From NCBI RefSeq assembly GCF_009914755.1, contig NC_060935.1: DNA of 64,000 nucleotides. The stretch is one strand, 5' to 3'. The position numbers were made by a program, and so were the translations under genes. Shown here piece after piece: positions 26,993-63,700 of this stretch (positions are counted from its first letter, which is position 1; every line of letters starts with the position of its first letter). The notes under the pieces were generated by a model that was not told the origin of the DNA, made no database searches, and saw nothing but the letters and a program-made list of their open reading frames with translations. This DNA comes from the human T2T-CHM13v2.0 reference genome, Homo sapiens.

Positions 26993-26998
26993 TTTATT
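26993..26998 (-). terminator. ACRV1: ACRV1 polyadenylation signal
   Basis: AATAAA on the minus strand ~235 nt after the stop codon. Confidence 0.8.
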
Positions 26999-27840: not shown

Positions 27841-28136
<296 letters not shown>

Positions 28137-30450: not shown

Positions 30451-30895
<445 letters not shown>

Positions 30896-30994
30896 CTTGA
30901 TTCTTTCCTGGGCCCCTGTCATTCCAACTGCCCCCTACCAGAAGTAAGTTGATGTGTTCTCAGGCAGAAATTGCCTCATGAAGTCCCCATATAC

Positions 30995-31114
30995 CTTCAA
31001 AGATCTTCTTTAACATGCACTGCTGGGAATTCTGAGTGATGCAGGTTCCCTCTCCACGAAGACATTTTCCTTGATCATTCATATAAGCACATGTGTAGCA
31101 ATTTAATATTGTGC
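30995..31114 (-). CDS. ACRV1: ACRV1 exon 3, first half of LU (three-finger) domain
   Basis: Acceptor attttcag|, donor AAG|gtatat; 120 nt, [40 protein letters not shown]. Confidence 0.98.
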
Positions 31115-33614: not shown

Positions 33615-33615
<1 letters not shown>

Positions 33616-33648
<33 letters not shown>

Positions 33649-33655
33649 CATATAT
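33616..33655. repeat. (TA)n(CA)n microsatellite
   Basis: Seen directly. Confidence 0.9.
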
Positions 33656-33844
33656 GAATTGTATCCTTGTGACATACCATTTACATTCACTTCATGGAGT
33701 TGTCCTGAGTACTTAATAAGATAAATTGTGAAGTGCACCATTGCCTAGTACTCAATTTTATTTTTCTTTTCTTCCCACCTTACACTGGGAATTACAAAAC
33801 TCTTACATGGTTATTTTTTTCTGGCCAGTCTCTTCTACCTTTAA

Positions 33845-34194
<350 letters not shown>

Positions 34195-35368: not shown

Positions 35369-35420
35369 CTCTGGCAGATCCAAGCAGATAAAGACTCATT
35401 AGCAAGAGAAACCTGTTCAT
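35369..35420 (-). CDS. ACRV1: ACRV1 (SP-10) exon 1, signal peptide
   Basis: ATG at 35420; MNRFLLLMSLYLLGSAR + G; donor GAG|gtgagt; 52 nt, phase 1. Confidence 0.98.
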
Positions 35421-35599
35421 CTGGATTTAGGAAAAGAGGGGACCCCAGTGTGGGCCACAGCTTCTTCACAGAGCTATGAAGCAAACTGCGAGCAAAAGCT
35501 TCCAGTGCTGAAGCAGAGCTTCTGGGAATTCTAGAACCTCAGAAGTAACCCATGTTTCTTCACAATGGGTTGGGCTCTGAGGTTCTTGTGTAGCCTGTT

Positions 35600-35700
35600 C
35601 AGGCAAGTTGGCCCTTAGCAACCCACTGCTTATTTCACTAGTGAAGACCAATGATTATTTTCTGTGTGCAGGGTAGTGTGTTGGGGCTATCTGCCCTATC
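35600..35700 (-). promoter_or_regulatory. ACRV1: ACRV1 proximal promoter
   Basis: Paired TG-repeat motifs (35663-35668, 35676-35681), adjacent AGAAAA and the 12-bp palindrome TTCACTAGTGAA (35634-35645); resembles the TDP-43-bound element described for the mouse SP-10 promoter (recalled). Confidence 0.65.
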
Positions 35701-35849
35701 TTTAAAAAAAAAAAAAAAAGTATTACCAAAAAGCACATATTTTTTGTAATAAAGTTTAAAAGATATCTACTGTCTTTTAAAAGTGTTTTTGACAATGAGA
35801 TGTAATTGTTGATTGTTTTCTGTTTGGCTTTCTAAATCAGCCTTTCTTG

Positions 35850-37951: not shown

Positions 37952-38221
37952 GAAGATAAAATAAGATTGGTCCTGTGTGCATGATTGTTGAAGCTGTGTG
38001 ATGGGTACATGCGGGTACTCTCTACTTTTGTATATGTTTGAAACTTTCTATACTGAAAATCTTCAGGGTGGAGGGCAGAAATACCTATTTGGAAAGCCTA
38101 GATAATCAATGCCTTATTTAAAATAGCTTCAGGGGATGATGGAGAAGTCTTTTTAATATGTGTGTGCATTAAGACCTAGATAGGAGCTTAACTGCTCCCT
38201 ATTATACAACTATCCTACACC

Positions 38222-38397
38222 CAGGGCTGGCTTCCTGAGCAGGCGCATGGGCCCACACTCAAAAGGGCCCTGGTTTCTTGCTTTGCTTTCAATCTCTGGA
38301 AATTCTTCGTCACTTTCTAACAAAGGCGCCTCATTTTTGCGTTGCACTGGGTCCCACAAGTGCTGTCTCCAGTCCTGCCTAGATCTCATTTTCCAGT
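38222..38397. mobile_element. MER91-like hAT element
   Basis: cagggctggcttc..ttgcactgggtcccacaa..cagtcctg termini. Confidence 0.6.
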
Positions 38398-38599
38398 CCC
38401 CTTAGGTATATCACCGTCTGGTATTGGAAAGCTTTGGCCTCTGAAACCAGGTTGAGGAAGCTTTCTTTTAGGAAGAGCTGGGGCACACCTAAGTCCAGGC
38501 TGCTGGCTTCAAGCAGACATTCCTCCCCTTCTTGCACTCTTCCCTACTTGATAAATATGTTCCCATATAAGTTTGTTGTGCTCTGATTTTTAGTAGAAG

Positions 38600-39140
38600 C
38601 CTTCTCAGAAACATCCCTTCCAACCTCTCCCTCTACTCCTTAGATTTCCTCAGGTTTGATGCTTTGCTAGAAGGACTTACAGAACTCAGGAAAGTGCTTT
38701 ACTTATATTTACCAGATTATTCTAGAGGACACAGCACAGTAACAGCCACATGGAAGAAATACATAGGAAAGGTATGTGGCGGCAGGTGGGGCGGGGAGGT
38801 GGTTGGGTGCAGAGCTTCCGTGGCCTCTGTGGGTGGGCCATTCTCCCAGCACATCAGTGTGTTCATCAACCCAGATGGTCTCTGAATCCTGTTTAGAGGG
38901 TTTTATGGAGGCTTCATTACATAGGCAAAATTGATTAAATCATTGGCCATTTGTGGAGCTGAACTTCTCAACCCTTGAATCATGGGATTGGTTTCTCTGA
39001 TGACCAACCCGTACCCTGAAGCTACCTAGGCCCACTTCATGAATCATCTCATTAGCATAAAAAGACAGTTCCAAGGGTATTAGGATCCCTGTGCCAGGAA
39101 CCAGGAGCAAGGACCAAATAGATATTTTTATGATGTCACA
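38600..39140. mobile_element. MER21-like LTR fragment
   Basis: tttgctagaaggacttacagaactcaggaaa..catctcattagcataaaaagac. Confidence 0.75.
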
Positions 39141-39542
39141 AAGAAATTCCCAGGATTGCCATGAAGGAAGGCCTCAGCATGATTGCTGTGCAGCTGGGGT
39201 GGAGACAACCCTCCCAGATAAGGGCAGGAGAATGAATGGCCCAAAGTGGAAGTCTCCAGAGAAATAATAATATATTATCTGATAGCTCCGATGACAGCCA
39301 TGTACAAATGTGTACTGAGAAGCTCTTGGAAGGTGGGGAAGCTTAGCCAGAAGCATAAAATTAATTGAGCAAATGATAATGTAATTATTATTTGTAGGAA
39401 AAAGAATATAAAATCATGTAATAAAAAATGTCATCCTAGTACTCATTTTATTTCACTTGTGAATACTATTTAAATATCTACCAGTCAGGGCCCACTTGCA
39501 GGACACAGGAGCTTGTCTGGTGAGTTACCTTCAGCAGAAAGG

Positions 39543-39581
39543 TATTAGGTTGGTGCAAAAGTAATTGCAGTTTTTGCCATT
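39543..39581. mobile_element. MADE1 (Hsmar1 MITE) half
   Basis: ttaggttggtgcaaaagtaattgcagtttttgccatt terminal inverted repeat. Confidence 0.85.
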
Positions 39582-39934
39582 CTTTTTTCTTTTTTTTTTT
39601 AATGGCTGCCACCTCTATCACAATCAGGAAAGTCACTGTAGAGTGTCAGGCAGCTTCCACAGGAACTGTTGGCTTCAGGAGGGCACCACTGTGTGAGCCA
39701 GGAATCAGGAGTGGGCTGCCACTAGGACTTGTAGCTGTATATGCACTCCACGCATGCTAGACGGGCATTGGCAAGACATGGTGTCTTGTTCCTCTTCTCT
39801 CACTATCATAAAGCTGGTACCTGGATGTAGAATGCTGCTTCTGCAAAAACAACCAACAAAATAAAACACAAAACACCTCACAAAATTCCAACATATTCTC
39901 AAACATCGGAAAACTATAGACATAGCAGAAAGAT

Positions 39935-40510
39935 TGTAATACCTAACCTTGTTTTAAGACTCTCCCTTAGCTACCTAACCTTGTTTCAATATGAATAGGC
40001 TCTCCCTTAGTTGAGAAAACCGGACGAACACCATTTGGCTCCTTCATTTACAAGACATCAAGGACTCCTCACCCATCCCCTTCCTCAAGGAGTTAACTTG
40101 TGTAAGCAGATCGAAGAGTCCAATTAACTGATAAGGTACTGTGGCAAGCAATGTCCATAGTTCCCAGGAATTCGCTCAAGAGATAGCACCATAAAGCCTC
40201 GGCGTTTGTGTCCAGCAGAGCCCCCGTACCTATCGCCTTGTGATAAATTTAAAGCCCCTGCTCCTGGAACTGTTTGTTTTCTTGTAACCATTCGTTTTTT
40301 TTTAACTTTTTGCATGTTTTAACTTCTGTAGAATTGCTACAATTAAGCACCCCCTCCCATCTCTAAACCAAAGTATAAAAGAAAATCAAGCCCCTTCTTC
40401 AGGGCCGATTGAATTTCGAGCGTTAGCCGCCTCTCGGGCGCTGGCTGATAAACGACTCCTGAATTCGGCTCAAAGTGTGGCGTTTCTCTCTAACTCGCTC
40501 AGGTACAACA
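39935..40510 (+). mobile_element. ERV1 solo LTR (LTR10-like)
   Basis: TG...CA termini, TSD AGAT (39931-39934 / 40511-40514), TATAAAA at ~40375. Confidence 0.8.
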
Positions 40511-40713
40511 AGATGACCCTCATTTCTGCATTCTTAATTAGTGAAATTTTAATCACACTGGCAAATGTAGTTCTTGGCTTTCCAGAAAGAAGAGCTATTA
40601 GAAGAGATTGGGGAAGATGTTGAGGGCTAATGCACCAAGGCCAGAACAACATAGCCCCCATCTCAAGGCCTTCACATTTACTGCTCCTTCTGCCTGGAGT
40701 CCTTTTCCTTCAG

Positions 40714-41139
40714 TGGCAAAAACTCTCCTTGATCTAACTTGAATCAGGCTCTCTTGAGTCCTCTGCCCCACTAGGCCCAATCTTTGGCTTGCCTTTCTCT
40801 CTGTTTGTAAAATCCACTTTGAGCAGGAATCCTGCTAAGTCAGTGCAGTGAAAATCCCTGCCCTTGATATCTGATCACCTGAATATCTATCACCCTGGCT
40901 TGCCTTCAGCAAGAATCTATTGAGTCTAGCAAGAATCTTAGAAGTTTCCACATGGTAATGTCCCATCCACCGACCCCTACCCTGCTCCTTGACTGTAACA
41001 CCCTTTCCTTGTGTTCAGACTACAGCCCAGTCTCTCCCCACTGCAAGAGCGCACTGCATTGGTCCCTATGCCTACAGTGGTAGTTCCCCCTGAAACAAGT
41101 CATTGTCTTTAGCAAGCGTCCTGAATACTTGTTTTAACA
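40714..41139 (+). mobile_element. MER31-like ERV1 solo LTR within an L2 remnant
   Basis: actctccttgatctaacttgaatcaggctc..cttgatatctgatcacc; TG...CA ends. Confidence 0.7.
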
Positions 41140-41527
41140 CCAGATACCAGCATGTCTTCCTCCCTCAGTCTCCTTAATTCGGTTCTCTGCTGAAATATCA
41201 CTTCTCAGAGAAACCCTTTTAAAAAAGCACTCCCTGCCACTGTCTATTGTCTTAGCCTCCTTCAGTTTTCTTCATTGTTTTTATCATTACCTGGCAATAT
41301 TTTATGTATCATTTTGATTTTTTATCTGTATGAGTGTCCTCTGTGTGTACACTACTCTGTCCCCAGAGTCTGGCATATCTTAGACACGAAATAGATGTCT
41401 GAAAGGACGACTAAGCGTTGACTTATCCTGCACTGTGAATCAACTCTATTGAGAGCATGGAGGGAGGGGCGGGGGGATGTATAAAGGAGGGAAGTTCTCA
41501 TCTATCATCATAAGAAAGTCCATCGAT

Positions 41528-41875
<348 letters not shown>

Positions 41876-41926
41876 TTATTTCACGGAGGTAAATCCCAGA
41901 AGAATGGGCTGATTATGGCTGGGGAC

Positions 41927-42438
41927 TGTTGGGAATAGGCCCCCAAAATCTGACCATAAACTGGCCCCAAAAATGGCCATAAACAAAATCTCTGCAGCAC
42001 TGACATGTTCATGATGGCCATGACACCCACACTGGAAGGTTGTGGGTTTACCAGAATGAGGGTAAGGAACACCTGGCCCACCCAGGGCGGAAAACCGCTT
42101 AAAGGCGTTCTTAAACCACAAACAACAGCATGAGCGGTCTGTGCCTTAAGGACATGCTCCTGCTGCAGCTAACTAGCCAGACCCATCCCTTTATTTTGGC
42201 CCATCCGTTTGTTTCCCATAAGGAATACTTTTAGTTAATCTAAAATCTATAGAAACAATGCTTATCACTGGCTTGCTGTCAATAAATACGTAGGTAAATC
42301 TCTGTTCGAGGCTCTCAGCTCTGAAGGCTGTGAGACCCCTGACTTCCCACTCCACACCTCTGTATTTCTGTGTGTGTGTGTCTTTAATTCCTCTAGCTCC
42401 ACTGGGTTAGGGTCTCCCCAACCGAGCTGGTGTCGGCA
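41927..42438 (+). mobile_element. MER9 (HERV-K9/HML-3) solo LTR
   Basis: tgttgggaa..ccataaactggcccc..gagctggtgtcggca; 6-bp TSD gggga(c/g); AATAAA at ~42281. Confidence 0.88.
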
Positions 42439-44078
42439 GGGGAGGGTGATATAAACTGATTATTTCATAGAGGTAAATCCCAGAAGAAAGAGCTGATTGT
42501 GGTTGGGGAGGGTGGGTGTGGGTGTTGGGTGGAGTGGATGGGAGATTGGGGGAGGATGGCCAAGCTTCTCAATAAGCAGCAGTCCATACATGTGTGCTGT
42601 TACTTAACCACCTGAAATTCGGAGAAATCTGGACAAGCTTCAGAGAGGAGCTCCCATTCCATTAGCCTCTCGCAGTTTATATAGCAGAAATCCCTTCCTG
42701 ACCTCCGCAGGCCCAGACCACTGGTCCATTCTGCATGAACTATCCCTTCCTGGAGGCTGGTGAAGCCTACACGGGCACCAGAAGGCCTCTCAAGTTTGTG
42801 CTGACTTGGAGCCAGAGCCACCAGAGAGGGAGGAGGAAAACAGAAAGAGCAACCGTTTTGTCTCGCGCGCATCCCTCTGTGTGTTCCAGCACTGCCCCCG
42901 CTGATGCGGCTGCACTGGCACGGCGCCACCCAGGAAAGGCCACCATGCAGACTTGAATTGGAACCTGCTCTGAATGTTTCTGGCTATGTGACCTTGGAAA
43001 GAGAATCACCCTCTCTGAGCCTCCGTGGCCTCATGCGTAGAATTGAGATAATACCATTTCCATGTTTCACACTTCTGAGGATGAAATGAGGCCATGTAGG
43101 TGAACACACTCAGCACAGTGCCTGGCATGAGGGAGGCATTCACAGAGTAGCCACTGAGTATGATTTTCCTTCCCTTGAGGGTTTCAGTTTTGCTGATATT
43201 ATAATAACTGTTTAATTTGCTCCTTGTTCACATGGCACTTTAGAGTTTACCCTGTATATCAGTGATACTGCCAAGCATATATTGTCTCTATTTTACAGAG
43301 GAGATTCTGAGAAACTACATAGGATGTAATCCATTTATCTTGACTTGACATCCCATCATGCTCAGGAGTGCATGATTCTCCATGACTGGTAATAATGTGT
43401 GTTGAACACATTCCAGGGCCACAGCTCCAGGGAGAATGACCAGGGCAGTGGCTGGGAGGGAGGAGGAGTCTATGAACTCTGAGAACCTCTCCTCACAGGC
43501 CTGAGGCCAGCTCCTCACTGTGAGCCTCCTCCCACCGCTCCCCACCCTAACCTGAGCACACACCTGGCCCTCACAACCTCAGAGCTCAGGGCACAGGAGC
43601 GAGTGCCATCTTCCCAGACCATGCGGGGGCCTCCACTGCTAAAACCCTGTTCAGGCAGCAACTTCTGCCAGAGACAGTGCTGTGCGAAAAGTGATAATTT
43701 CTTCATCTTCAGCTTAACATTTTATCCCCTTTTAACAAGCAAAGAAAGGATTAGAGAGATTCAATATCCTCTCCAGGACCATACAGTGAATAAGTGGTAG
43801 GTCTGAGATTGAAATACACAGACAGCTGACTTCAGAGCCTAAGGGATATTCTTGTTTAGATTTCTTTTTCAATTATGCCTTGTGGTCTCCTTGGGACAGA
43901 AAAACATTGTAAAAGGAAGAAAAGGGAATACCTATTTACAGATAATGTTCATAGTAAGGCAGAATAGGATTCAGCATTATAAGGGAGGTTAAAATGGAAA
44001 CAGGAAATATTGGAGGCAAAGGTAGGAGAAAAGGGTATCGAATATTTTATGTAAAATTGCCATTGGGATGGGACTACA

Positions 44079-44200
44079 GCAGTGGCTCTCCTCTGGGAGT
44101 GAATTCCCCTCCAGGGCACATTTGGCAATGTCTGGAGAGATCATCAGTTGCACAAGTTGGGGATGAGCTGCCGTTGGAGTGTAATCCTGGAGGACTGGGT
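44079..44200. mobile_element. MER20 fragment
   Basis: cagtggctctc..acatttggcaatgtctggaga. Confidence 0.7.
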
Positions 44201-46313
44201 ATAAGGTGAGGCCCATTTGGGGAGACTCTTGAATGCCACACCAAGGAGTTGCTGTTTCATCAGGTGGACCAGGAAAGTATTTTGAGCAGGAGAGTAAAAT
44301 GATTGTAACTGTACTCTAGGAGGCCATACCCAGGCAGGCATGAGCGCTGCACTGCAGCTGAGAGAGTGAAGAAGTGGTGATTACATCCAAGAACACAAAG
44401 GCCAAAAAATGGACGAGGCCGAATTCCATGGAAGAAGCTGCAGAGACATCAGGAGGAGCCAGAGGTGACGTTCTGAAAGGTTTCACTGCCAGTGCCTGTG
44501 CCACAGGATTGCCCTGAGAGACAGAAGCGTGCAGAGGCAGAAGGGACACATCAGGAGGCTGCACACCACCAAGCTCAGCTCTCTGCATATGTGGAAGCTG
44601 CACTGCCACCCACCCTGCCCTCCACATCTGGCAAATATGTGCAGACAAACATTGCTAGGGAAAAATGTAGTGGGGGTTTTTGCTTGCTCCCCAATGCTTT
44701 CCAAGACAGCAGCTTCACCAAGTCATTGTGGATTCAATGTGTGATCAAATAAATTCTGTGATTCCTCCCATGGGAACCCAGTCAGGGACACCATGATAAG
44801 GATCCTGCCAGTGGCCAGGTCTGTACACTAGCTGTGCAGAAGTGGCATGCTTGCGAGTGCACCTCAGGGAGTCACTGTCAGCTACCAGTGTCCTGACTCA
44901 GCCAAAGGCAAATGCAGAGGCTGCGTGTGCTCCAGCCACAGGTTGCAGTTCTTCACTCTTATCCTTACATCTACTAAAAATCAGAGCACAAAGAAACTTA
45001 TCTAGGAAAAACTTATTGAGGAACATATTCATCAAATAGGGAAGAGTGCAAGAAGAGGAAGAACTGTCTGCTTGGAGCCAGCAGCCTGGACTTAGGGGTG
45101 CCCTAGCTCTTCCTAAAAGGAAACTGCCTCAACCTGGTTTCAGAGGCCAAAGTTTTCCAACATCAGATGGTGATGCTCCTAAGGAGACTGGAAAATGAGA
45201 TCTAGGCAGGACTGGAGACAGTACTTGTGGGACCCAGTGCAGAGCAAAAACGAGGTGACCCTTAGAACAAGGGGTGGTGTTTAGAAGGAAAACCGAAAGG
45301 AATAGTAGCCAGAATTCAAGAGCGTCAGATATTCTAAGAGGCAGTGAGGGGTTAACATAGTCCAAGGACTTTCAGGGGTCCGATCACACAAGGATGACCT
45401 TGGCCATCATTGACGACCTTGGTCAGAGCAAGTTCAGGTGAGAAGCAGAGGCAGAAGGCAGATGAGAGTGAATGAAAGAGTGAACAGAAAGGGAGTGGAG
45501 ATGGCGAGTGTGGCCAGCTCTGTAAAGCAGCTTTAGGAGGAGAATGAGATGATGGTGCGGCAGCCATAGAGAGGGTAGAAGCAAGGACAGCTTTTTAAAG
45601 AAACAAACAAACAAACAAAAAACCCCAATGATTTTGGCATGTTTTTAGGCAAGGATAAATTTCTCTCTTATGTTTTTCTTTCCTCAAATTAATACAGAAT
45701 GTCTACGTTATGGATTTGGGAATCTCTACTTTTATTCATCTTTTTATCACTCTTTGCACCTTTATTTTTTCCTTCAGCTTCCCTCTCTTCATCTGTTTAT
45801 CATGTTTCATATTTCTCTTTTCTTTTTCATTCTTTCCCCTCTCTCTTCTTCCTCTTCACTCTCTCTCTTTTAAAACAGGAGTTAATGTCAAAATAAAGGA
45901 TATTTTTATTATTTATATTATTATTAAATCCATTTTTTAAATTCCCATTTTAATTGTATATGCCTATAATTAGCTTATAACATTTTCTTTCTGATAAAAG
46001 TTTCAACAAGCATGTCTTTAATGCTCAGATTATTACATATGTTTTAATGGACTTTTAAAACATGAGAATGAGAAAGGAGAGAAATGTAAAGCAGATGAGT
46101 CTGTCTAGGTCAGGATCTGGTTAATTCTCCCTGTACCTACACAAAAGCACCAACCCAAACAGAAACAATAACCAAACTCAAATTCTTCAGCCTAAATGAG
46201 GAAATTCAGTCTGGTCCTAATCAAGAGAGACAGGGAAAGACCAAAAATGATAAAGGCAGGACCAATGAGTGGAATTTGTATTGTTTTAAAATGACTTTTA
46301 TAATTTCTCCAAC

Positions 46314-46567
46314 TCCAGTTGAACAATGAGAACACTTGGACACAGGGAGGGGACCATCACACACCGGGGCCTGCCAGAGGGTGGGGGCAAGGGTAGGGAG
46401 GGCATCAGGACAAATACCTAATGCATGCAGGATTTAAAACCTAGACAATGCATTGACAGGTGCATTAAACCACCATGGCACATGTATACCTATGTAACAA
46501 ACCTGCACATTCTGCACTTGTATCCCAGAATTTAACTAAAATAAAAAAATAAAAAATGATAAAAAAT
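46314..46567 (+). mobile_element. 5'-truncated L1PA 3' end
   Basis: gaacaatgagaacacttggacacaggg..A tail; TSD ataatttc(t/c)ccaact. Confidence 0.9.
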
Positions 46568-46925
46568 ATAATTTCCCCAACTTCTCTGTTGAGCAAATTA
46601 AGACTTGGTCACTGTAGTGGATACATATCTTTACATATTTGTTGAAACTCAGAAAGCACAGCACCAACAGTGAACCTTAATGTAAACTCTGGTGATAAGG
46701 ATGTGTCAATATAGGTTCATCAGCTGTAACAAACAGACCTCTCTGGTGCAGGATGTTAATATTGGGGGAGGCTGTGCATGTGTGGGGGCAAAGGATATAT
46801 GGGAACTCTCTGTATTTTCTGCCCAATTTTTCAGGGAACCTAAAACTGCTCTAAAAAATAAAACCACGTTTGTCACTGTAGACAATTTTAAAAATACATA
46901 ACATTATGTATAAAAAGTTAACATA

Positions 46926-47221
<296 letters not shown>

Positions 47222-47622
47222 GTTAACATAACCAATAGCCTGTTAACTAGATAATAGGTTAACCTAATAACCTACTAACGAATATAAATATTTTGGTTTC
47301 CACACTTCCAGGCTAATTATCATGTACATAAGTGTATAACCATCTCCATCTGCCTGGGAAAGAGGGTTTTCTGGGATGTAGGACCTTCAGCGCCAAAGCC
47401 AGGAAAGTCCCAGAGACAACCGAGATGAGTTGGTCATCCTATTATAGTTTTATGTTGTATTCTATTTTCTAAAAAGATAATGAAAATGTAGTATTTGGCT
47501 TTTGAATGGCAATTTTTTCTTGGACCATCAGGTACCAAGGTGTTGCTGGGATCACAAATGAGCCAGCCAAGCTCCTTGACTGCTGACCACCACTCACAGA
47601 CCACCACCCACCCAGGACTCAT

Positions 47623-47671
47623 CGCCCAGGAGGAAGAGCAGAGCCACACTCAGTGCCAATAGCTTGTCCAT
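47623..47671 (-). pseudogene. Orphan PATE-like signal-peptide exon with mutated splice donor
   Basis: ACGATGG start context, MDKLLALSVALLFLLG + G (49 nt, phase 1) followed by ATGAGT, one change from consensus GTGAGT. Confidence 0.55.
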
Positions 47672-49938
47672 CGTCCTCAGGAAGGAGGTCCTGGAAGCAG
47701 GCTGCCACTGAAAGGCCAGCTTTCCCAGGCTTTGGCTCTCTCCTAGCCCTGGGCAGGGGGCAGGGACCCACTGTCTGCAGAGCCGTTTTGCTATCAGCAT
47801 CTTCTGACTCCCACTGCAGGAGTGTTACAGCCCCGTTGCACTTTCTGCAGAGTAAACACCCTAGTTTATGAAACTTTTTTTTCTGTTTTTTTAGGGCGGT
47901 GGGAGAACCTGAGGACAGGATCTCTGAAGGAATAGTAACATGGTGTACAGGAAGAATTGATGTTTGCTGGGAACCTGACACACTCCAAGCCTGAGGTCCC
48001 TGAGCAACTTCCCACCTCACTCCATCCCTCCTTCTCCCCTACCCCCTTACTCTCAGGTAGAGAGCAAGCCTCACACACAACCTGGGGAGAGTCCAGGCTG
48101 CAGTGCAAGGGCAGAGTAAAGGACTCCAGGCTGAAAATGCATCAAGTCGGGGAGCTCCACCTGCCTGAGGAAGAGCTCCTCCATCAGACCACACCTCCTG
48201 CCAAACAGACATACCTGGGGACCAGGTGAGCAGGTGATGGAAGAGGATACCATGTTTCCTGTTGAAACATGAATGGTACCTATCATGGTAAATCTATTCA
48301 TCATCCCGTATCATAGTATTCTCTATTCAGAAGCTGTCTGGACATGGGGAGTTATTCACTTGTCCTGTGGCCCTGGGCTGAGACAGTGACTGCTCAGGGT
48401 AGAACAAGAGTGCAAGGAAAAGTTGAGATGGGAGATAGCCGGCCTCTGTTTTAGGACATGACAAAGAAGGAATAAGGGACTTCATGAATGAGTGTGTGTG
48501 AATGGGAATGGGGTGGCATTGGGAGGAGCTGCTAAGAAAAGCAAAAGTTCATGGAAGAGAAAGGTGTCCCGTATTTAGGCTTCCTTTGATTCCCAGTTCC
48601 GATTTTAAATATGACTTTTTAAAGAGTGTTGTTAATAATAACATACAAGGATAATATGAAGAGTAGAAACAATAGTTATGGTGTCCCAGATCTGCTAAGA
48701 ACCTTATGAACAATAGTCTCATATGTTTCTGATAATAGCCTTAGAATTTAAGTGTGGTTATTTTCTCTATTTCCTTGATGAGGAAATTAAGGAAAACGAT
48801 TCAGTAACTCGTTGCCAGGGTTTCTTAGCCAATAAGTGCTGGCACGAGGCTTCAAACCCAGTCGCATCAGATTCTGGAGTGCGTGTTCTGGCCAGGGCAC
48901 TCCCCTTGTGAGTCTCAGCCTAGATGCTTCACTGGAAGATCTGATGGGGGTTGGAGTGGGCCTGGAAGCTTGTGGTAGTTCTGAACACCCAGTGTCTTGA
49001 ATGGTCAGAGGAGGTGGTTCCTGCACTGGGAGAGAGATTGTGCTTGATGATCTCTGAGTGGGCTGGCCACATAATACACCCTGGGGACTGAGACATAATG
49101 GGGAGGAAAAGGAGCTTTACTAATCATTAAGCTTGGACAAGGCCATAGACTAAGAATAAATCTAAGATTCATCAGGCCAAAATACGTGGCATTCCTCAAG
49201 GACCTCATGTCTTCATGGACCTCCCAATCTTCTTTTTTCTTGAATAGCCTGGATGCTCTGGGGTTTGGCATTATTCAGTCCTCCTAGACCCTCTACACAT
49301 ATCTCCCACCATAAATGAAGCAGAAATGTGGGGTGATGGTGTTCAGGGTCTCTGGAGTGTGGGTGATGGGGAGGAAGTGAGACTGCTTAGTGTGGGGCAC
49401 TATTCTGGGTATGGAAGTGATGATAACCCATGTGGGAAAGGTATGAAGGTTGTAGGTTCAGGTATGAAAGAATGAATATGAACTAAAGGGAATTGTGAGG
49501 AAAATACATACAGGTGGTCTTTGTTTTGCATGTGTCCCATATGCATGAATATAAGTTACCATGGATTAGTTAAATGACACCAGCCCCTCAATAACATAGT
49601 TCAAATTTTGGTTACCATGGTATATGTATTATGGATAGTTACATAAAGATGACCTTTGCTACTAGCTCTTCGGTCCACAAATCAACATGTAAATAATTTA
49701 TGCTTATCAATCAGTTATCAATCATGTCATTTCTTTCAAAGTCTGGCACTGTGCCTCTGTTCATTAGTTCACTCACAGACAACAAAGCATTTAGGTGTGT
49801 TGCTTCCTTGTCTCCTGGGAACATATTCACATGATTCAGGAACTCTCGGATAGACTGCATGATACCAAGAGTGCAAAGGGTAAAATGTTGGAAGCTGATC
49901 CAAACATAGAAAGAAGTATAGCAATCTATTCAGGGAGT

Positions 49939-50417
<479 letters not shown>

Positions 50418-52365
50418 TAATAATTTTGGTCTCTGTACATCAATTATGTTCTTATGCAATAGCAGTCATAAACTTTTCCTAGTGGAACCAAGCCCCATAA
50501 ATGCATAAACCCAGGATTTTGTTTTACAAAAAACAGCCAGGACAGAACATATACACCAGGCTAAATTGTTCCATTGGAAAGGACCCACCACGATCTTTTC
50601 CAGAGGAAACACCATTAGGATGTTCAATAAGCATAAATTTCCACTAGAAAATTTGACCAGATCCTTATTTTCTTTTTCGCAACCTCTCTTCCTATATTCT
50701 CCAGCTGATAGTACTTTTTTTTCCAAAATCACATTTTGTGTTATATTTGTTAATAACACATTCTTTAAGTCTGCAAAAATCAGAGAGGTGTTAGTAAGTT
50801 GATGAGTCAAAGAAATTTATTCTTTGGCATCTGCAATAATTCGTTTGTATCCCATTTCCATTATTTTCTACACCGTCCACAGCCCCTTTTCTGGCACAAT
50901 TATGATGGGGTGATGTAGGATTGGGAATCATGGGCACCCCTGGCATTCCTCAGCCACTGTGTGAGAGGCATATGCTGAGCATCCTGGTGATGGGGGTAAC
51001 ACAGCAAAGTGAGTCAGTTTGGGGTCTGGGTACAACATGGAACCACTTGTTCATGCACCTCACTCCTCCAGTGCTGCGGTGCAAGCCTGTCTTCCATGCA
51101 CGGGGAACGGGAGCTCTCATGCATCATAGCTGTGCACTCAAGGTGTAGATTTCAGGCAGGCTTTCTGTCTATGGAAGCATGGGGGTTCTTGGCCCTTCCT
51201 CTCCAGCAGCTGCTTTCTGGTCCAGCAGACCATCCTGCATTAATTCACAGGTGGTATCATCCTTTGCCTACTAGTACATATCTTCTGAGTGCCTGCTCTG
51301 CCCACTCAGCACGTGCTGTGCAGAGTGCTCTGGTTCACTGAAGATCTGACTGTTAAGGTCTCTGCCATGAAGGGTTGTCTAAATGGAGGAGAGAACCTGC
51401 CACCCCCACCTGGATTATTTTGTCTAGCATCCAAGCTGGAAAGCCCTGGTCTTGTTCCATGCTCTTCCTCTCCTTGGCTAGATCTCAGGAGTGCTGAGTA
51501 TCTAGAGGCTTGATTGTTTTTATCAAGCATGATGAATTAGCTAAAGACATTTTAGAGAATATCAGTAGAAAATTATAATTTAAAAAAAGTGAAAAGTATT
51601 TTGTACTCTAAGTGTCTTACCTGTCACACCCTAGTCCAGGCCCTACAGGTAGTATGTGTGGAAATTCTGAGCCTTCCAGCCTAGTGCTAGAGCAGTAAGT
51701 GAGAGCCTCTATCTACATAAACCCAGCTTGATTCCAATTCCTCTGTGTTTCAGCGACTGAAAAATAAGGGTATCAAAAGTAGCAGGAATTGTTTCTTACT
51801 TTGCAAAATAATCTATCACCTGTAAGGCCTCTGTTACTTTTGTTGTTTAGATAGCATTTGCTGTGTACTTGATGTGCTTTTGATAGACTGAAGACATATC
51901 TTAAGTGACATATTGAATGGTAGTAGCAGATACAGATCCTGCTATATGGATAATACTGAATAAGTATTTGCTATTATGACTACTCCCAGCATTGCCAAAA
52001 CCAATTCAGTAATGGGAGGGCCATGGTCCTGACTATAAGCTCAAACACAGAGAGGGTCGAAAGAAGAGTGAAAGGCCTGGACTTCACCTATGAGGAACAG
52101 GACGGGGCTTCAGGGATGTCCTTTATTCTTGGCAGCTCCAAAGGGGCTGGCTCTGTGGAAATCTTTCCTGAGCCTGGACAGTGGTGAAACACCCACTGGC
52201 GAGTGTGTAAAAGGAAGCTTCTGCCCACAGCCTGGGAGCAGCTCAGTCCAGACTCTCCAGCCTGCTCTCATCTGCACACTGAAGCAGACTGTCTTAGCCT
52301 TTCCGGAGCACTTAGCTGCCTGGTTCCAGCCACCCTGCTGTGTCTTTCTTACCTCCCAGACTGAG

Positions 52366-52426
52366 ATGGACAAGTTCCCGCTCATGCTCCTGCTGCTGGG
52401 GGTTTTTCCTCTTGTGTTCTTCCAAG
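52366..52426 (+). pseudogene. PATE/ACRV1-like LU pseudogene, exon 1 (signal peptide)
   Basis: MDKFPLMLLLLGVFPLVFFQ + G, 61 nt, phase-1 donor AAG|gtgtga; MDK start and hydrophobic core as in PATE1. Confidence 0.85.
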
Positions 52427-53276
52427 GTGTGAGTGAGGGTTTGGGCTGGCTGGGGCAGGAGGTGAGAACAGGGGCGAAGATAGCTGGCGAGCAGGCTGAA
52501 GATGATCTGGCCAGCACGGGAGGAGGTCAACACCAAGATTCTGGGATGATCTGACCAACAAGAATTGGAGGTGTCTCTCTGCTGTCCCCACCTCAACTCC
52601 TACCAGGGCAAGAGGTCAGGCCTCTTCCCGAGGTTTCACTCACTTGGGAAAATCAAGGCTGGTGTGTGTTTCTCAACATGGGGCGTTGAGGCTGTCTGGC
52701 TGGGATTATGTGGCAGAGCCAATGATTGCTCAAGGCTTTCTATATAGAAGCAACCTAGGGACAGTGGTCTAGTAGGTAGAAGTCACTGAAGGGCTTATCC
52801 TAAACCAGTGTTTCCATAGCAAACATCCTGTACAATCTTTCCATGGCAAGTTTCACTTAGATATGTTTGGATATCAGATACCTCTTTAGCAGGGTGTGGT
52901 GGGAAACTTTGTGAGAATGCCTCTCTTCCTTGAAGCCAGCACAGTCTTTATGCCTCTTTCATTTCCCAAGAGATCATCAACCTCAGAGAAGTTGTATGTA
53001 GATGCTCTGACTGTGCTCTGCACAAAGGCACCACTGTCAAAGGGATACCTTTTCTTTTATTTTCAATAAAATTAAATCACTTTACCAAATCTCCAGCTCC
53101 TTAAGGAACTAATGGACAAAATCTGATGGGAACATTTCCACCTTCTAAGACTATGCTGGGAGATGTTCTTAGGGTTATTCTTTGCCCTTGAACTCCTGGG
53201 CCCTAATAGTGGCCTAGCCCACCTTGGTCTCAGCCCATTCAGCCCTGGGCACAGCCTTCACGTTTATTTTCTACAG

Positions 53277-53403
53277 GTGATGCCACAATGTGCATGGTGT
53301 GCAAGCTTTTTAAGAGAGGCCAGTTTAATAGGCAAGGGCAACTGCACTGTGAACCATGGCTCTGGATGCAGAACCAGGGATTTCTTCATTTTTGCTGAGA
53401 CAG
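53277..53403 (+). pseudogene. PATE/ACRV1-like LU pseudogene, exon 2 (frameshifted)
   Basis: Acceptor tttattttctacag|, donor CAG|gtaatg; GDATMCMVCKLFKRGQ / frameshift at ~53324 / LIGKGNCTVNHGSGCRTRDFFIFAET; as it stands TGA at 53396-53398. Confidence 0.92.
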
Positions 53404-53544
53404 GTAATGCTGTGAGCCAGTCTGAGAGAGCCTTGCTGGGTGGTGAATGCATTCGGGGACCAGACGTGGCATGGATGGGGAAGGTCTCCCCACTTTGAGG
53501 TAAAGTATTGTTTCTGGCACTAAATGTGAATGCCTGTCTTCCAG

Positions 53545-53701
53545 GTGGGTGGTTCTATAATCACACGGAATTGAACTGCTTAAATACATGTGCGCCTTCA
53601 CATATGTATCTTATGACCTGAAGGTTTCAACCTTTTGCTGTAAAGATCAAGACTTCTGTAATAGAAATAAAGGACAATTAATGACCACGAAGACTGACTG
53701 A
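53545..53701 (+). pseudogene. PATE/ACRV1-like LU pseudogene, exon 3 (frameshifted)
   Basis: Acceptor cctgtcttccag|; GGWFYNHTELNCLNTCAPSHMY / frameshift at ~53610 / YDLKVSTFCCKDQDFCNRNKGQLMTTKTD*; hallmark CCx5CN motif. Confidence 0.93.
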
Positions 53702-53891
53702 CCATCACTTCCTTGGCAGTGGTGGTTTGCCCTTCACCTCTTTCTGTGCCAGTATCTCTGGTGTGCTCCCCCTCCCCACGTGCTCCTGCTGAGCCTGCAG
53801 GATCCTGGAGTGCCCTCCAAGTATCCCTCCTCACTTCTCTCCAGGCTACTGGCTCCATCCTTCTGACGCCAAATACTCTCAGTTCACCCTG

Positions 53892-54310
53892 TGATATTGT
53901 TGCGATGTTTGTCCCCTCTAAATCTCATGTTGAAATGTGATCCCCAATATTGGAGGTGAGGTCTGATGAAAGGTGTTTTGGTCATGGGAGCAGATTTCTC
54001 ATGAATGGCTTGATGCCCTCCTCATGGGAATGAGTGAGTTCTCACTGTATTAGTTGACATGAGAGCTGTGGTTTAAAAGAGCCTGGCACCTCCTCTCCTC
54101 TCTCTTGCTTTGTTTCTTACCATGTGGCACCCCTGCTCCCCCTTTGCCTTCTGCCATGAATAAAAGCTTTCTGAGGCCTCACCAGAAGCCAAGCAGATGC
54201 TGCTTCCATGTTTGTGCAGCCAGTATAGCCATGAGCCAAAATAAACCTTTTTTCCTTATAAATTACCCCGTCTCAGGTATTCCTTTATAACAATGCCAAA
54301 TGGATTAACC
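53892..54310 (+). mobile_element. MST (MSTB-like) MaLR solo LTR
   Basis: tgtttgtcccctctaaatctcatgttgaaatgtgatcccc..ttataaattacccc. Confidence 0.88.
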
Positions 54311-60700: not shown

Positions 60701-63700
60701 CTCCTCCAAATGATTGCAACTCTTCTCCAGCAAGGGCACAAAACTGGATGGAGAATGAGATTGACAAATTGACAGAAGTAGGCTTCAGAAGGTGGGTAAT
60801 AACAAACTCTGAGCTAAAGGAGGATGTTCTAACCCAATGCAAGGAAGCTAAGAACCTTGATAAAAGGTTGTAGGAACCGCTAACTAGAATAAACAGTTGA
60901 GAGAGGAACATAAATGACCTGATGGAGCTGAAAAACACAGCACGTGAACTTTGTGAAGCATACACAAGCATCAATAGCTGAATCGATCAAGCAGAAAAAA
61001 CGATATCAGTGATTGAAGATCAATTTACTGAAATAAGGCATGAAGACAAGATTAGAGAAAAAAGAAAAAAAAGGAAGAAACAAAGCCTCCAAGAAATATG
61101 GGATTATGTAAAAAGACCAAATCTATGATTCACTGGTGTACCTGAAAGTGACAGGGAGAATGGAACCAAGTTGGAAAACATACTTCAGGATATTATCCGG
61201 GAGAACTTCCCTAACATAGCAAAATGGGCCAATATTCAAATTCAGGAAATACAGAAAACACCACTAAGATACTCCTCAAGAAGAGCAACCCTAAGATGCA
61301 CAATCATCAGATTCTCCAAAGTTGAAACAAAGGAAAAATTATTAAGGGCAGCCAGAGAGAAAGGTCAGGTTACCTACAAAGGGAGTCCCATCAGACTAAC
61401 AGCAGATCTCTCTGCAGAAACCCTACAAGCCAGAAGAGAGTAGGGGCTAATATTCAACATTTTTAAAGAAAAAAATTTCAACCCAGAATTTTGTATCTAG
61501 CCAAACTAAGCTTCATAACTGAAGAAGAAATAAGATTTTTTGTAGACAAGCAAATGCTGAGAGATTTTGTCAGCACCAGGCCTGCCTTACAAGAGCTCCT
61601 GAAGGAAGCACTAAATATAGAAAGGAAAAACTGGTACCAGCCACTGCAAAAACACACCAAAATATAAAGACCAATGACACTATGAAGCAACTGCATCAAC
61701 TAATGTGCAAAATAACCAGCTAGCATCATGATGACAGGATCAAATTCACACAAAACAATATTAACCTTAAATGTAAATGGACTAAATGCCCCAATTAAAA
61801 GACACAGACTGACAAATTGGAGAAACAGTCAAGACCCATCAGTGTGCTGTATTCAGGAGACCCATGTCACGTGCAAAGAAACACATAGGCTCAGAAGAAA
61901 GGGATGGAGGAATATTTACCAAGCAAATGGAAAGCAAAAAAAAAGTAGGAGTTGCAATCCTAGTCTCGGATAAAACAGATTTTAAACCAACAAAATCAAA
62001 AAAGACAAAGAAAGGCATTACATAATGGTAAAGGGATCCATGCAACAAGAAGAGTTAACTATCTAAATATATACGCACCCAATACAGGAGCACCCAGATT
62101 CATAAAACAAGTCCTTAGTTACCTACAAAGGGACTTAAACTCCCACACAATAATAGCGGGAGACTTTAACACCCCACTGTCAATATTAGACAGATCAATG
62201 AGACAGAAAATAAACAAGGATATTCAGGACTTGAACTCAGCTCTGGACCAAGTGGACCTAATAGACATCTACAGAACTCTCCACCCCAAATCAACAGAAT
62301 ATACATTATTCTCAGGGCCACATAGCACTTATTCTAAAATTGACCACATAATTGGAAGTAAAGCATTCCTCAGCAAATGCAAAAGAAAGGAAATCATAAC
62401 AGTCTCTCAGACCACAGTGCAATCAAATTAGAACTCGGGATTAAGAAACTCACTCGAAACCGCACAACTACATGCAAATTGAACAACTTGCTCCTGAATG
62501 ACTGCTGCGTAAATAACAAAATTAAGGCAGAAATAAAGAAGTTCTTTGAAACCAATGAGAACAAACAGAAAATGTACCAGAATCTCTGAGACACAGCTAA
62601 AGTAATGTTAAGAGGAAAATATATAGCACTAAATGCCACATCAGAAAGTGGGAAATGTCTAAAATCGATGCCCTAACATCACAATTAAAAAAACTAGAGA
62701 AGCAAGAGCAAACACATTCAAAAGCTAGCAGAAGACAAGAAATAACTAAGATCACAGCAGAACTGAAAAAGGTAAAGACATGAAAATCCCTTCAAAAAAA
62801 TCAATGAAACCTGGAGCTGGGTTTTTGAAAAGATTAACAAAATAGATACACTGCTAGCTAGACTGATAAAGAAGAATAGAGAGAAGAATCAAATAGACAA
62901 TAAAAAATGATAAAGGGGATATCACCACTGATCCCACAGGAATACAAACTACCATCAGAGAATACTATAAACACCTCTATGCAAATAAACTAGAAAATCT
63001 AGAAGAAATGGATAAATTCCTGGACACATATACCCTCCCAAGACTAAACCAGGAAGAAGTCAAATGCCTGAATAGACCAATAACAAGTTCTGAAATTAAG
63101 GCAGTAATTAATAGCCTACCAAACAAAAAAAGCACAGGAACAGATGGATTCACAGTTGAATTCTACCAGAGGTACAAAGAGGAGCTGATACCATTCCTTC
63201 TGAAACTATTACAAACAATTGAAAAGGAGGGACTCCACCCTAACTCATGTTATGAGGCCAGCATCATCCTGATAACAAAACCTGGCAGAGACACAACAAA
63301 AAAAAGAAACTTTGAGGCCAATGTTTCTGATGAACATTGATGCAAAAATCCTCAATAAAATACTGACAAACCAAATCCAGCAGCACATCATAAAGCTTAT
63401 CCACCATGATCAAGTTGGCATCAACCTTAGGATGCAAGGCTGGGTTCAACTTACACAAATCAATAAATGTCATCCACCACATAAACAGAACCAATGACAA
63501 AAACCACATGATTATCTCAATAGGTGCATAAAAGGCCTTTGATAAAATTCAACATCCTTTCATGCTAAAAACCGTCAATAAACTAGGTATTTATGGAACA
63601 TATCTCAAAATAATAAGAGCTATTTATGACAAACCCATAGCCAATATCATACTGAATGGGCAAAAACTGGAAGCATTCCCTTTGAAAACCAGGACAAGCA

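What the first reader, a model, noticed from the sequence alone, without database searches (positions are those of the whole stretch)
52366..53701. Hidden three-exon secreted three-finger (LY6/uPAR, PATE/ACRV1-like) gene, inactivated by two frameshifts
SEEN: exons 52366-52426, 53277-53403 and 53545-53701, all with GT-AG sites and phase-1 introns, the same architecture as ACRV1 exons 1/3/4. Restoring 2 nt at ~53324 (CAG T[GT] TTA, recreating Cys3) and 1 nt at ~53610 gives MDKFPLMLLLLGVFPLVFFQ-GDATMCMVCKLFKRGQ[C]LIGKGNCTVNHGSGCRTRDFFIFAET-GGWFYNHTELNCLNTCAPSHMYxYDLKVSTFCCKDQDFCNRNKGQLMTTKTD*. This has a signal peptide, 10 Cys, the CCx5CN end and N-glycan sequons NCT and NHT. It aligns to ACRV1 ([10 protein letters not shown] vs GQ[C]LIGKGNC; C-x15-CC spacing identical). 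The ORF track shows only fragments of it. KNOWN: rodents carry additional Pate genes next to Acrv1, expressed in the male reproductive tract; I recall that inactive human counterparts (PATE-A/PATE-C type) have been mentioned, so it may not be wholly undescribed. INFERENCE: few lesions and intact splice sites suggest a fairly recent primate-lineage loss of a reproductive-tract secreted protein.
Basis: partly seen in the sequence, partly recalled or inferred. Interest (0 to 1): 0.88.

Follow-up and report, generated by a model that had tools for sequence, protein, structure and literature searches.

The report
Dead human copy of Pate5
This is the broken, unannotated human remnant of a small secreted sperm-maturation protein gene (mouse Pate5/Pate-A) that is still intact in an Old World monkey, a lemur and many other mammals, so it is an ordinary lineage-specific gene loss.

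Summary
Window 52366-52426, 53277-53403 and 53545-53701 (+) are three colinear exons with GT-AG borders and phase-1 introns. They encode a signal peptide and one Ly6/uPAR (three-finger) domain. The frame breaks twice, at 53324 and at 53613-53614.

Searching one stop-free piece found intact 111-121 aa mammalian proteins. Read with X at each break, the human sequence matches a 115-aa gelada protein at 100 of 113 positions, with the same start and stop. In trees it sits beside gelada, inside a clade with full support that contains mouse Pate5 (Pate-A).

No second copy exists in T2T-CHM13, and RefSeq lists no PATE pseudogene. The locus lies inside the last exon of lncRNA LOC105369551. The first break falls on the third conserved cysteine codon and leads to a stop at 53396-53398, so no three-finger domain can be made.

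Two papers say the mouse Pate5-Pate14 block has no human counterpart; this corrects them for Pate5. I could not test the timing within apes, fixation in people, or expression. It is a new member of a known kind and of moderate interest.

The parts
52366..52426 (+). Exon 1 coding part: ATG and signal peptide (20 codons plus the first base of a split Gly codon). Donor GT at 52427-52428.
   Evidence: Exon-1 profile E=2.4e-8, the only hit below E=1 in 204 kb. tblastn with gelada P0018 residues 1-21: 90% identity, E=3.5e-7.
53277..53403 (+). Exon 2 (127 nt): first half of the LU domain, cysteines 1-5, sequon NCT. Acceptor AG at 53275-53276, donor GT at 53404-53405.
   Evidence: Exon-2 profile E=6.8e-15 (53289-53399) and 1.2e-5 (53276-53323, other frame).
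53324..53324 (+). First frame break: one leftover base where all 20 intact clade members have the third cysteine codon.
   Evidence: column C in 20 of 20 intact proteins.
53396..53398 (+). TGA reached by the frame that starts at the ATG after the first break. With orthologue-like splicing the product would end here after 60 residues.
   Evidence: (ORF 53288..53398).
53545..53701 (+). Exon 3 (157 nt): second half of the LU domain, cysteines 6-10, sequon NHT, the CCx5CN end. Ancestral-frame stop at 53699-53701. Acceptor AG at 53543-53544.
   Evidence: Exon-3 profile E=1.3e-13 and 1.2e-9 in the two frames. The stop is at the same position as in gelada P0018.
53613..53614 (+). Second frame break: a two-base remnant of one codon. 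The incoming frame then meets TGA at 53619-53621.
   Evidence: 100 of 113 positions identical to gelada with the break placed here.
47895..54265 (+). Last exon of the Gnomon lncRNA LOC105369551 (XR_007081814.1). It contains all three relic exons and both relic introns unspliced. AATAAA at 54240-54245 lies just before its end.
   Evidence: Annotation given with the finding. Sequence.

Best explanation
The locus is a unitary (non-processed, single-copy) pseudogene. It is the human remnant of the gene called Pate5 / Pate-A / Anlp3 in mouse.

The ancestral gene had three coding exons and made a precursor of about 115 aa. That precursor had a signal peptide of about 20 residues, one Ly6/uPAR three-finger domain with ten cysteines, two N-glycosylation sequons and no GPI tail. 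It was therefore a secreted protein.

In mouse the gene is specific to the initial segment of the epididymis and is regulated by testicular luminal factors. It lies inside the Pate8-Pate10 block. Deleting that block strips ADAM3 from maturing sperm and makes males severely subfertile.

In the human reference the frame breaks twice. The first break sits on the third cysteine codon and runs into a stop five bases before the end of exon 2. Even a correctly spliced mRNA would therefore give only a 60-residue product without fingers 2 and 3.

Shown here: the anatomy, the breaks, orthology, intact relatives and single copy. Inferred: loss of function, and the ancestral role taken over from mouse. 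Not shown: when the loss happened within apes, whether it is fixed in people, and how the locus is expressed.
For: Anatomy and breaks.

Intact relatives:
- One search gave 5 of 5 scored candidates, four of them carrying PF00021.
- One search gave 29 of 29 scored candidates. All are mammalian proteins, all but one of 99-138 aa (a 93-aa Cricetulus fragment), and include gelada P0018 and Prolemur P0012.
- One search gave 25 of 25, including mouse 'prostate and testis expressed A precursor / Pate5' (P0030).

Similarity of the X-read-through:
- gelada 100 of 113 positions identical, with the same length and stop;
- lemur 70 of 110;
- mouse Pate5 60 of 113;
- human PATE1-4 and ACRV1 only 21-31 of 82-102.

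Trees:
- (32 rows): human + gelada 94/99; the clade holding mouse Pate5 100/100.
- (27 rows, the five long paralogue rows left out): human + gelada 99; Euarchontoglires 97; clade 100. The clade excludes a sister 'b' paralogue group.

Single copy.

Position between ACRV1 and PATE1, and phase-1 architecture like PATE3, PATE4 and ACRV1.

Family membership of the orthogroup: 18 of 24 members hit PF00021 at E<=0.01. P0004 scores 28.8 bits against a cut-off of 24.8.

Relaxed constraint: of 46 columns where at least 18 of 20 intact proteins agree, the human sequence departs at 3. These are the broken Cys, an Asp invariant in 20 of 20 that is Asn in human, and one change shared with gelada.

No human or ape protein appears among the 29 + 25 hits. 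RefSeq lists no PATE pseudogene and annotates only a lncRNA here.

Mouse biology, from passages or sections read: PMC3192744, PMC10266198, PMC6744855 section 6.
Against: - Pfam's UPAR_LY6 model does not detect the human locus. None of the five pieces scanned reached it. None of its 51 six-frame matches in the genome lies here, although exons of ACRV1 and PATE1-4 are found.
- The gelada protein is a computational prediction. It misses the Pfam thresholds itself: only Toxin_TOLIP at 15.1 bits against a cut-off of 21.2, and no family at E<=0.01.
- A profile search of PDB sequences gave only spurious Cys-rich hits.
- Mouse Pate14/Sslp1, Pate6-Pate12 and Gm5916 sequences were not obtained. Orthology to Pate5 rather than to those rests on their absence from the hit lists, and the search needs shared 5-residue words.
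- In mouse, Pate5 is not the gene next to Acrv1. Pate12, 11, 9, 8 and 14 lie between them (PMC4839075 passages).
- Fixation of the breaks in people, and their presence in other apes, were not tested.
- The subfertility in mouse is for a multi-gene deletion, not for Pate5 alone.
Confidence: 0.88

Rival explanations
1. It is a live or polymorphic gene. On this view the two breaks are errors of, or private to, the haplotype in this assembly, and other people carry an intact PATE5.
For: Start codon, all four splice sites, the stop position and 9 of 10 cysteine codons are intact. The human branch is short (0.05). No population data could be consulted here.
Against: There are two independent breaks, plus loss of an Asp that is invariant in 20 of 20 intact proteins. 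No human or ape protein of this family appears among 29 + 25 named-source hits, whereas pipelines predict it in many other mammals. RefSeq models only a lncRNA here.
Confidence: 0.04
2. The relic has a new job. It might act as part of the lncRNA LOC105369551, or it might encode the 60-residue signal-peptide-bearing product that the ATG frame still specifies.
For: The whole relic lies in the last exon of an annotated lncRNA that ends just after an AATAAA. The ATG sits in a good context (G at -3 and at +4). The premature stop is only 5 nt before the last exon junction. By the usual 50-nt rule (recalled) this would spare a spliced mRNA from nonsense-mediated decay.
Against: The lncRNA is a Gnomon model, and none of the full texts in the searched library mentions it (0 occurrences of the name). 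The 36 residues after the break match no Pfam family (protein 8). Nothing here shows constraint on the shifted frame.
Confidence: 0.05
3. It is the remnant of a different Pate gene, for example Sslp1/Pate14, the gene next to Acrv1 in mouse, and not of Pate5.
For: [quoted passage not shown] The human relic is the first LU gene after ACRV1, as Pate14 is in mouse (PMC4839075).
Against: The only mouse protein returned is Pate5/Pate-A. It nests among the other rodent members of the clade (77% identity to the Peromyscus query; trees). Source names for this one clade are inconsistent: PATE2-like, PIP-1-like, urinary protein 2-like, SP-10-like. They look automatic. Mouse Pate-A is 117 aa and Sslp1 is 99 aa (PMC3192744 Table 3). 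The clade members are 111-121 aa.
Confidence: 0.05

Closest known systems
Mouse Pate5 (Pate-A, Anlp3, 9230110F15Rik) and its mammalian orthologues
   Same: Same orthogroup in two trees. Same three-exon layout, signal peptide, ten-cysteine LU pattern with a CN end, two sequons, size of about 115 aa, and cluster location.
   Different: The human copy has two frame breaks and has lost cysteine 3 and an invariant Asp. It shares 60 of 113 positions with mouse. In mouse, five further Pate genes lie between Pate5 and Acrv1 (PMC4839075). I found no relics of them in human.
Human PATE1-PATE4 and the C-terminal domain of ACRV1 (SP-10)
   Same: Same gene cluster on 11q24.2, same LU-domain cysteine pattern, same phase-1 intron positions.
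   Different: These are only distant paralogues: 21-31 identical positions of 82-102 aligned, tblastn E no better than 0.36. They are intact and annotated.
Annotated human LU-family unitary pseudogenes (LYPD9P, LY6G6E) and fertility-gene pseudogenes ADAM3A/ADAM3B and CST12P
   Same: The same kind of event: a gene alive in mouse and dead in human (for LYPD9P, LY6G6E and ADAM3A/B; for CST12P and again ADAM3A/B). ADAM3 and Cst12 belong to the same mouse sperm-migration phenotype class as the Pate8-Pate10 block (PMC6744855 section 6; PMC10266198 passages).
   Different: Those are named and annotated. This one is not in the RefSeq set for this assembly.
Snake three-finger toxins (Pfam Toxin_TOLIP, PF00087)
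   Same: Weak profile similarity: 8 of 24 orthogroup members at E<=0.01. The shared fold class is recalled, not tested.
   Different: The two members whose scores were printed fall below the family cut-off: 20.4 and 15.1 bits against 21.2. These are endogenous reproductive-tract proteins, not venom components.

Membership tests
Ly6/uPAR (LU, three-finger) domain, Pfam PF00021 | Match to the family profile above its curated cut-off | tested here: inconclusive
   Human pieces: no PF00021 match. The C-terminal piece hits only Activin_recp, which I recall as a related three-finger family, at 18.7 bits against a cut-off of 20.9. None of the 51 genome-wide PF00021 matches is at this locus. Intact orthologues: 18 of 24 match at E<=0.01, and P0004 scores 28.8 against 24.8. 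The pieces are 15-37 aa, too short to reach the cut-off.
Ly6/uPAR (LU, three-finger) domain, Pfam PF00021 | Ten-cysteine pattern of PATE proteins, C-x2-C-x7-8-C-x6-C-x7-8-C ... C-x3-C-x15-16-CC-x4-5-CN (as quoted in PMC3192744 and PMC3316536) | tested here: met
   All spacings fit: x2, x7, x6, x7; then x3, x15, CC, x5, CN. Nine cysteine codons are present and the third position coincides with the first break.
Ly6/uPAR (LU, three-finger) domain, Pfam PF00021 | Three-finger fold | not testable with these tools
The sequence profile against PDB gave no three-finger chain.
PATE cluster, Pate5/Pate-A orthogroup | Location in the ACRV1-PATE-DDX25 interval, and the three-exon, phase-1 architecture | tested here: met
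   The locus lies between ACRV1 and PATE1. Coding-part lengths are 61 / 127 / 157 nt. This compares with PATE3 49 / 123 / 125, PATE4 58 / 117 / 122, and ACRV1 52 / (501) / 120 / 125.
PATE cluster, Pate5/Pate-A orthogroup | Groups with Pate5 rather than with other cluster members | tested here: met
   Trees. Limitation: the only paralogues in the tree were the 'b' group and human PATE1-4/ACRV1. Mouse Pate6-12, Pate14 and Gm5916 were not available.
PATE cluster, Pate5/Pate-A orthogroup | Secreted (signal peptide, no GPI-anchor tail) and expressed in the epididymis | not testable with these tools
   A hydrophobic N-terminus and a short polar C-terminus are visible. There was no signal-peptide predictor and no expression data. 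Rat PATE-A is predicted to have a signal peptide at 1-23 (PMC3316536 Table 2).
Unitary pseudogene | Disabling lesions in a gene with introns, in its ancestral place | tested here: met
   Two frame breaks and premature stops. The introns are retained.
Unitary pseudogene | No functional copy elsewhere in the genome | tested here: met
   only this locus matches P0018 below E=2.9. The tool scores only the best candidates and hides closed regions.
Unitary pseudogene | Intact orthologue in related species | tested here: met
   Gelada P0018 (115 aa), Prolemur P0012 (112 aa), colugo, rabbit, rodents, carnivores, bats and artiodactyls. These are predicted proteins.
Unitary pseudogene | Lesions fixed in the species | not testable with these tools

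The most novel reading that the evidence does not exclude
The death of PATE5 in the human (perhaps whole ape) lineage may not be an isolated loss. It may be one step in a partial dismantling of the rodent-type sperm maturation route, which depends on the epididymal initial segment and on ADAM3. ADAM3A/B and CST12 are also pseudogenes in human. In mouse the Pate block containing Pate5 is needed to keep ADAM3 on sperm. If so, the order of these losses along the primate tree would show how sperm passage to the oviduct was rewired in apes.
Probability: 0.12. Interest if true: 0.55.

Novelty: new member of a known kind. Interest (0 to 1): 0.33.

Why it matters
Two papers treat the mouse Pate5-Pate14 block as lacking any human counterpart. 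One suggests the block arose in mouse by duplication after the split from human (PMC4839075 passages). The other calls the Pate8-Pate10 region 'not conserved in humans' (PMC6744855 section 6).

For Pate5 this finding shows the opposite history. The gene is old, with intact relatives in primates, colugo, rabbit, rodents, carnivores, bats and artiodactyls, and it was lost on the way to humans.

This matters for carrying mouse male-fertility genetics over to people, because the Pate8-Pate10 deletion is severely subfertile. It also matters for annotation: the locus deserves a pseudogene entry instead of, or besides, an anonymous lncRNA. It does not reveal a new kind of biology.

Tried and rejected
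- Human PATE1-4 and ACRV1 as tblastn queries barely see the locus (best E=0.36). They are not the parents.
- Pfam on the separate pieces and PF00021 across the whole genome did not pick up the locus.
- A profile of 24 orthologues against PDB sequences gave only zinc-finger and TRPV4 noise.
- A minus-strand 'FCC' match at window 63269-63322 (E=0.001; translated) lies almost wholly in a masked repeat at 62875-63316. I read it as a chance hit. I recall the peptide as LINE-like; that is not tested.
- Dating by protein change failed. Of 14 human-gelada differences, 5 are human-derived, 6 gelada-derived and 3 unresolved. One unresolved difference was an artefact of where I first put the X. With the corrected placement there are 13 differences. 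Because the intact gelada branch changes as fast as the human one, this says nothing about when constraint ended.
- Literature searches found no description of a human Pate5/Pate-A pseudogene. Searches for PATE + pseudogene + three-finger + ACRV1, for Pate5/Pate-A/Anlp3/9230110F15Rik/PATE5P (13 papers, and 0 occurrences of PATE5P), for LOC105369551 and related names and for PATE + unitary pseudogene were run.
- Passages from five Pate/LU papers whose find calls included the word 'pseudogene' hold no such description. PMC4839075, PMC3316536, PMC6744855 and PMC2686098 had 0 occurrences of the word. PMC6600238 mentions pseudogenes only for CD59 and teleosts.
- In PMC3192744 I did not search for the word. 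Its Table 3 gives no human homologue for Pate-A.
- The two papers most likely to mention it were not held: Levitin 2008 (PMC2423272) and Margalit 2012 (PMC3329192). Kaplan 2007 was seen only as a reference entry. Supplements were closed. I recall only the Levitin abstract, which does not mention pseudogenes. So 'undescribed' is not established.
Full report
WHAT IS THERE

The sequence shows an ATG at 52366 followed by 20 codons of a typical hydrophobic leader, MDKFPLMLLLLGVFPLVFFQ. One further base follows, then a GT donor.

A second block, 53277-53403, sits between a pyrimidine-rich AG acceptor and a GTAATG donor. A third block, 53545-53701, starts after another good acceptor and ends in TGA.

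Exon 2 reads DATMCMVCKLFKRGQ in one frame. From 53325 it reads LIGKGNCTVNHGSGCRTRDFFIFAET in another frame.

Exon 3 reads GWFYNHTELNCLNTCAPSHMYL and then hits TGA at 53619-53621. The remaining part, DLKVSTFCCKDQDFCNRNKGQLMTTKTD*, is in a different frame.

The mechanical ORF list shows only fragments. The second break is best placed at 53613-53614 rather than ~53610.

IS IT MORE THAN CHANCE?

Human PATE1-4 and ACRV1 proteins, spliced from the annotation in a script, barely detect the locus (best E=0.36). I therefore searched the protein database with a stop-free 111-codon frame of the window, restricted to the 40 residues around the second exon-2 piece.

All five scored candidates were mammalian proteins of 99-121 aa, and four of them carry PF00021. 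Five more candidates were left out by the tool as unnamed.

Using one of these (P0004) as the query gave 29 of 29 scored candidates, with nine more left out. Using a Peromyscus member (P0027) gave 25 of 25, with seven left out.

I aligned 24 of the 39 proteins fetched (A1), leaving out 15 partial or N-terminally aberrant ones. From A1 I built exon-wise profiles and searched 12,072 six-frame pieces from the 204 kb between CHEK1 and beyond PATE4:
- Exon 1 scored E=2.4e-8.
- Exon 2 scored E=6.8e-15 and 1.2e-5 in its two frames.
- Exon 3 scored E=1.3e-13 and 1.2e-9 in its two frames.
- All hits lie at the claimed places and in order.
- The next best hits were true ACRV1, PATE2, PATE4 and PATE1 exons, at 1e-5 to 0.03.

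A six-frame search of the whole assembly with the gelada protein put its five best matches at this locus. The sixth had E=2.9.

WHAT IT IS

I read the human pieces through in a script. They were joined at the natural splice junctions, with X at each break.

This read-through is 115 residues long, like gelada P0018. It is identical to P0018 at 100 of 113 comparable positions and has the same start and stop. Identity to other relatives falls with distance:
- lemur 70 of 110;
- colugo 72 of 109;
- rabbit 71 of 111;
- mouse Pate5 60 of 113;
- human PATE1-4 and ACRV1 only 21-31 of 82-102.

In a maximum-likelihood tree of 32 rows the human sequence pairs with gelada (94/99). The pair sits inside a 100/100 clade that holds mouse 'prostate and testis expressed A precursor / Pate5' (P0030).

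Human PATE2 was drawn into that clade on a branch of length 5.7, which the tool flags as unreliable. Without the five long paralogue rows (27 rows), support is 99 for the human-gelada pair, 97 for Euarchontoglires and 100 for the clade. A separate sister group of six 'b' paralogues falls outside it.

Source names for clade members are inconsistent: SSLP1-like, PATE2-like, PIP-1-like, urinary protein 2-like, SP-10-like and Pate5. I give them little weight.

The cysteine spacing fits the published PATE motif quoted in PMC3192744 and PMC3316536. Nine of the ten cysteine codons are present, and the third coincides with the first break. The coding-part lengths and phase-1 introns match those of PATE3, PATE4 and ACRV1 exons 1/3/4.

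HOW IT IS BROKEN

There are two breaks.

The first is at 53324. A single base stands where 20 of 20 intact clade proteins have the third cysteine. The frame coming from the ATG then runs to TGA at 53396-53398, five bases before the exon-2 donor. An mRNA spliced like the orthologues would give a 60-residue product: the leader, the first two cysteines and 24 unrelated residues.

The second break is at 53613-53614, where a two-base remnant of a codon remains.

There is a further sign of relaxed constraint. Of the 46 columns where at least 18 of 20 intact proteins agree, the human sequence departs at three:
- the broken cysteine;
- an Asp that is invariant in 20 of 20, which is Asn in human;
- one Ile-to-Val change that gelada shares.

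It belongs to the three-finger superfamily, and 8 of 24 members touch Pfam Toxin_TOLIP. I therefore made no repaired version and name no repairing change.

CONTEXT

The relic lies 16.9 kb from the 5' end of ACRV1 and 48.5 kb before PATE1. It sits wholly inside the last exon (47895-54265) of the Gnomon lncRNA LOC105369551. That exon ends about 20 nt after an AATAAA at 54240-54245. RefSeq lists no PATE-family pseudogene in this assembly.

The mouse gene order is Pate4, 2, 13, 3, 1, 10, 7, 6, 5, 12, 11, 9, 8, 14, Acrv1 (PMC4839075 passages). I found no relics of Pate12 through Pate14 between the human relic and ACRV1. My profiles are specific to this orthogroup, however, and could miss old relics of distant paralogues.

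WHAT THE ANCESTRAL GENE DID (from papers, not tested here)

Mouse Pate-A is detected strongly in epididymis, weakly in vas deferens, and in none of the non-reproductive organs tested. It is highest in the initial segment. After gonadectomy it falls to near the detection limit even with testosterone replacement, which indicates lumicrine regulation (PMC3192744 passages).

Pate5 is among the top initial-segment transcripts (PMC10266198 passages).

Male mice lacking the Pate8-Pate10 block, which includes Pate5, sire 0.3 pups per litter against 9.6 for controls. Their sperm lose ADAM3 during epididymal transit, barely bind the zona pellucida and cannot pass the utero-tubal junction (PMC6744855, section 6 read in full). 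This is a multi-gene deletion, so the share due to Pate5 is unknown.

COMPARISON WITH WHAT IS KNOWN, AND NOVELTY

Unitary pseudogenes of LU-family genes are a known kind. LYPD9P and LY6G6E are annotated in this assembly.

Two papers state that the mouse Pate5-Pate14 genes have no human orthologues or are 'not conserved in humans'. One of them suggests a mouse-specific origin by duplication. For Pate5 that is wrong. The gene predates the rodent-primate split and was lost in the lineage leading to humans, after that lineage separated from the one leading to gelada.

Five full-text searches found no description of this relic (one search was used only to locate the Levitin paper). The two most relevant papers were not held, supplements were closed and GENCODE could not be consulted.

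WHAT REMAINS OPEN

- Timing. At protein level the human branch (0.05) is shorter than the gelada branch (0.093), and the derived changes split 5 human to 6 gelada. The gene evolves fast even when intact, so protein data cannot date the loss.
- The absence of ape proteins from the hit lists hints at a loss shared by apes but does not show it.
- Whether the breaks are fixed in people.
- Whether the locus is spliced or merely read through as part of the lncRNA.

A BOLDER READING

ADAM3A, ADAM3B and CST12P are also pseudogenes in this annotation. In mouse, the Cst cluster and the Pate block give the same ADAM3-loss phenotype. PATE5 may therefore belong to a set of linked losses in the ape lineage.

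Against this, OVCH2, TEX101, LY6K, PRSS37, CMTM2, PMIS2 and LYPD4 are annotated as protein-coding. The pathway as a whole is not gone. I give this reading a probability of about 0.12.

VERDICT

The locus is a unitary pseudogene of the Pate5/Pate-A orthogroup (confidence 0.88). It is a new member of a known kind. It is useful for annotation and for carrying mouse fertility genetics over to humans, but it is not a surprise to a specialist.

Noticed in passing
L008:1181-2361 (+), i.e. chr11:125,749,181-125,750,361, outside the window and between it and PATE1: A second PATE-like relic or unannotated gene. There is an exon-3-like stretch ..CCRNDETLTKGIIRWITCCKTQDFCNSF (tblastn with PATE4 E=0.007; exon-3 profile E=0.11). 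About 1 kb upstream is an ORF with a hydrophobic start and a cysteine-rich stretch whose spacing departs from the family pattern. Neither has a Pfam match. Its orthology is unknown.
   Followed up: partly
window 63248-63409 (-): A match to the exon-3 profile, [10 protein letters not shown] (E=0.001; translated). It lies almost wholly in a masked repeat at 62875-63316. I read it as a chance hit in repeat-derived sequence, not a gene relic.
   Followed up: partly
window 37961-54265 (+): The lncRNA LOC105369551 starts 2.5 kb from the ACRV1 start (35487, opposite strand). Its 6.4-kb last exon swallows the whole relic and ends about 20 nt after AATAAA at 54240-54245; a second AATAAA lies at 54159-54164. 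It may be divergent transcription from the ACRV1 region. No paper in the library names it.
   Followed up: partly
proteins P0010, P0015, P0017, P0028, P0035, P0037 (no human locus found): This is a sister 'b' paralogue group of the Pate5 clade in carnivores, artiodactyls, bats and rodents; one member is named 'PATE13-like'. No human counterpart or relic appeared in the 204 kb searched.
   Followed up: partly
window 52145-52204 (+), upstream of exon 1: The odd N-terminus of a pig protein model (P0016) aligns here (50% identity over 20 residues, E=0.01, one stop inside). This hints at a conserved upstream segment or alternative first exon.
   Followed up: no
window 30564-35785 (+) against 26163-35487 (-): Long 3' exons of CHEK1 transcript variants overlap ACRV1 on the opposite strand (annotation).
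   Followed up: no
genome annotation, chr8, chr16 and chr20: ADAM3A, ADAM3B and CST12P are annotated pseudogenes. OVCH2, TEX101, LY6K, PRSS37, CMTM2, PMIS2 and LYPD4 are annotated as coding. This bears on the co-loss idea.
   Followed up: partly
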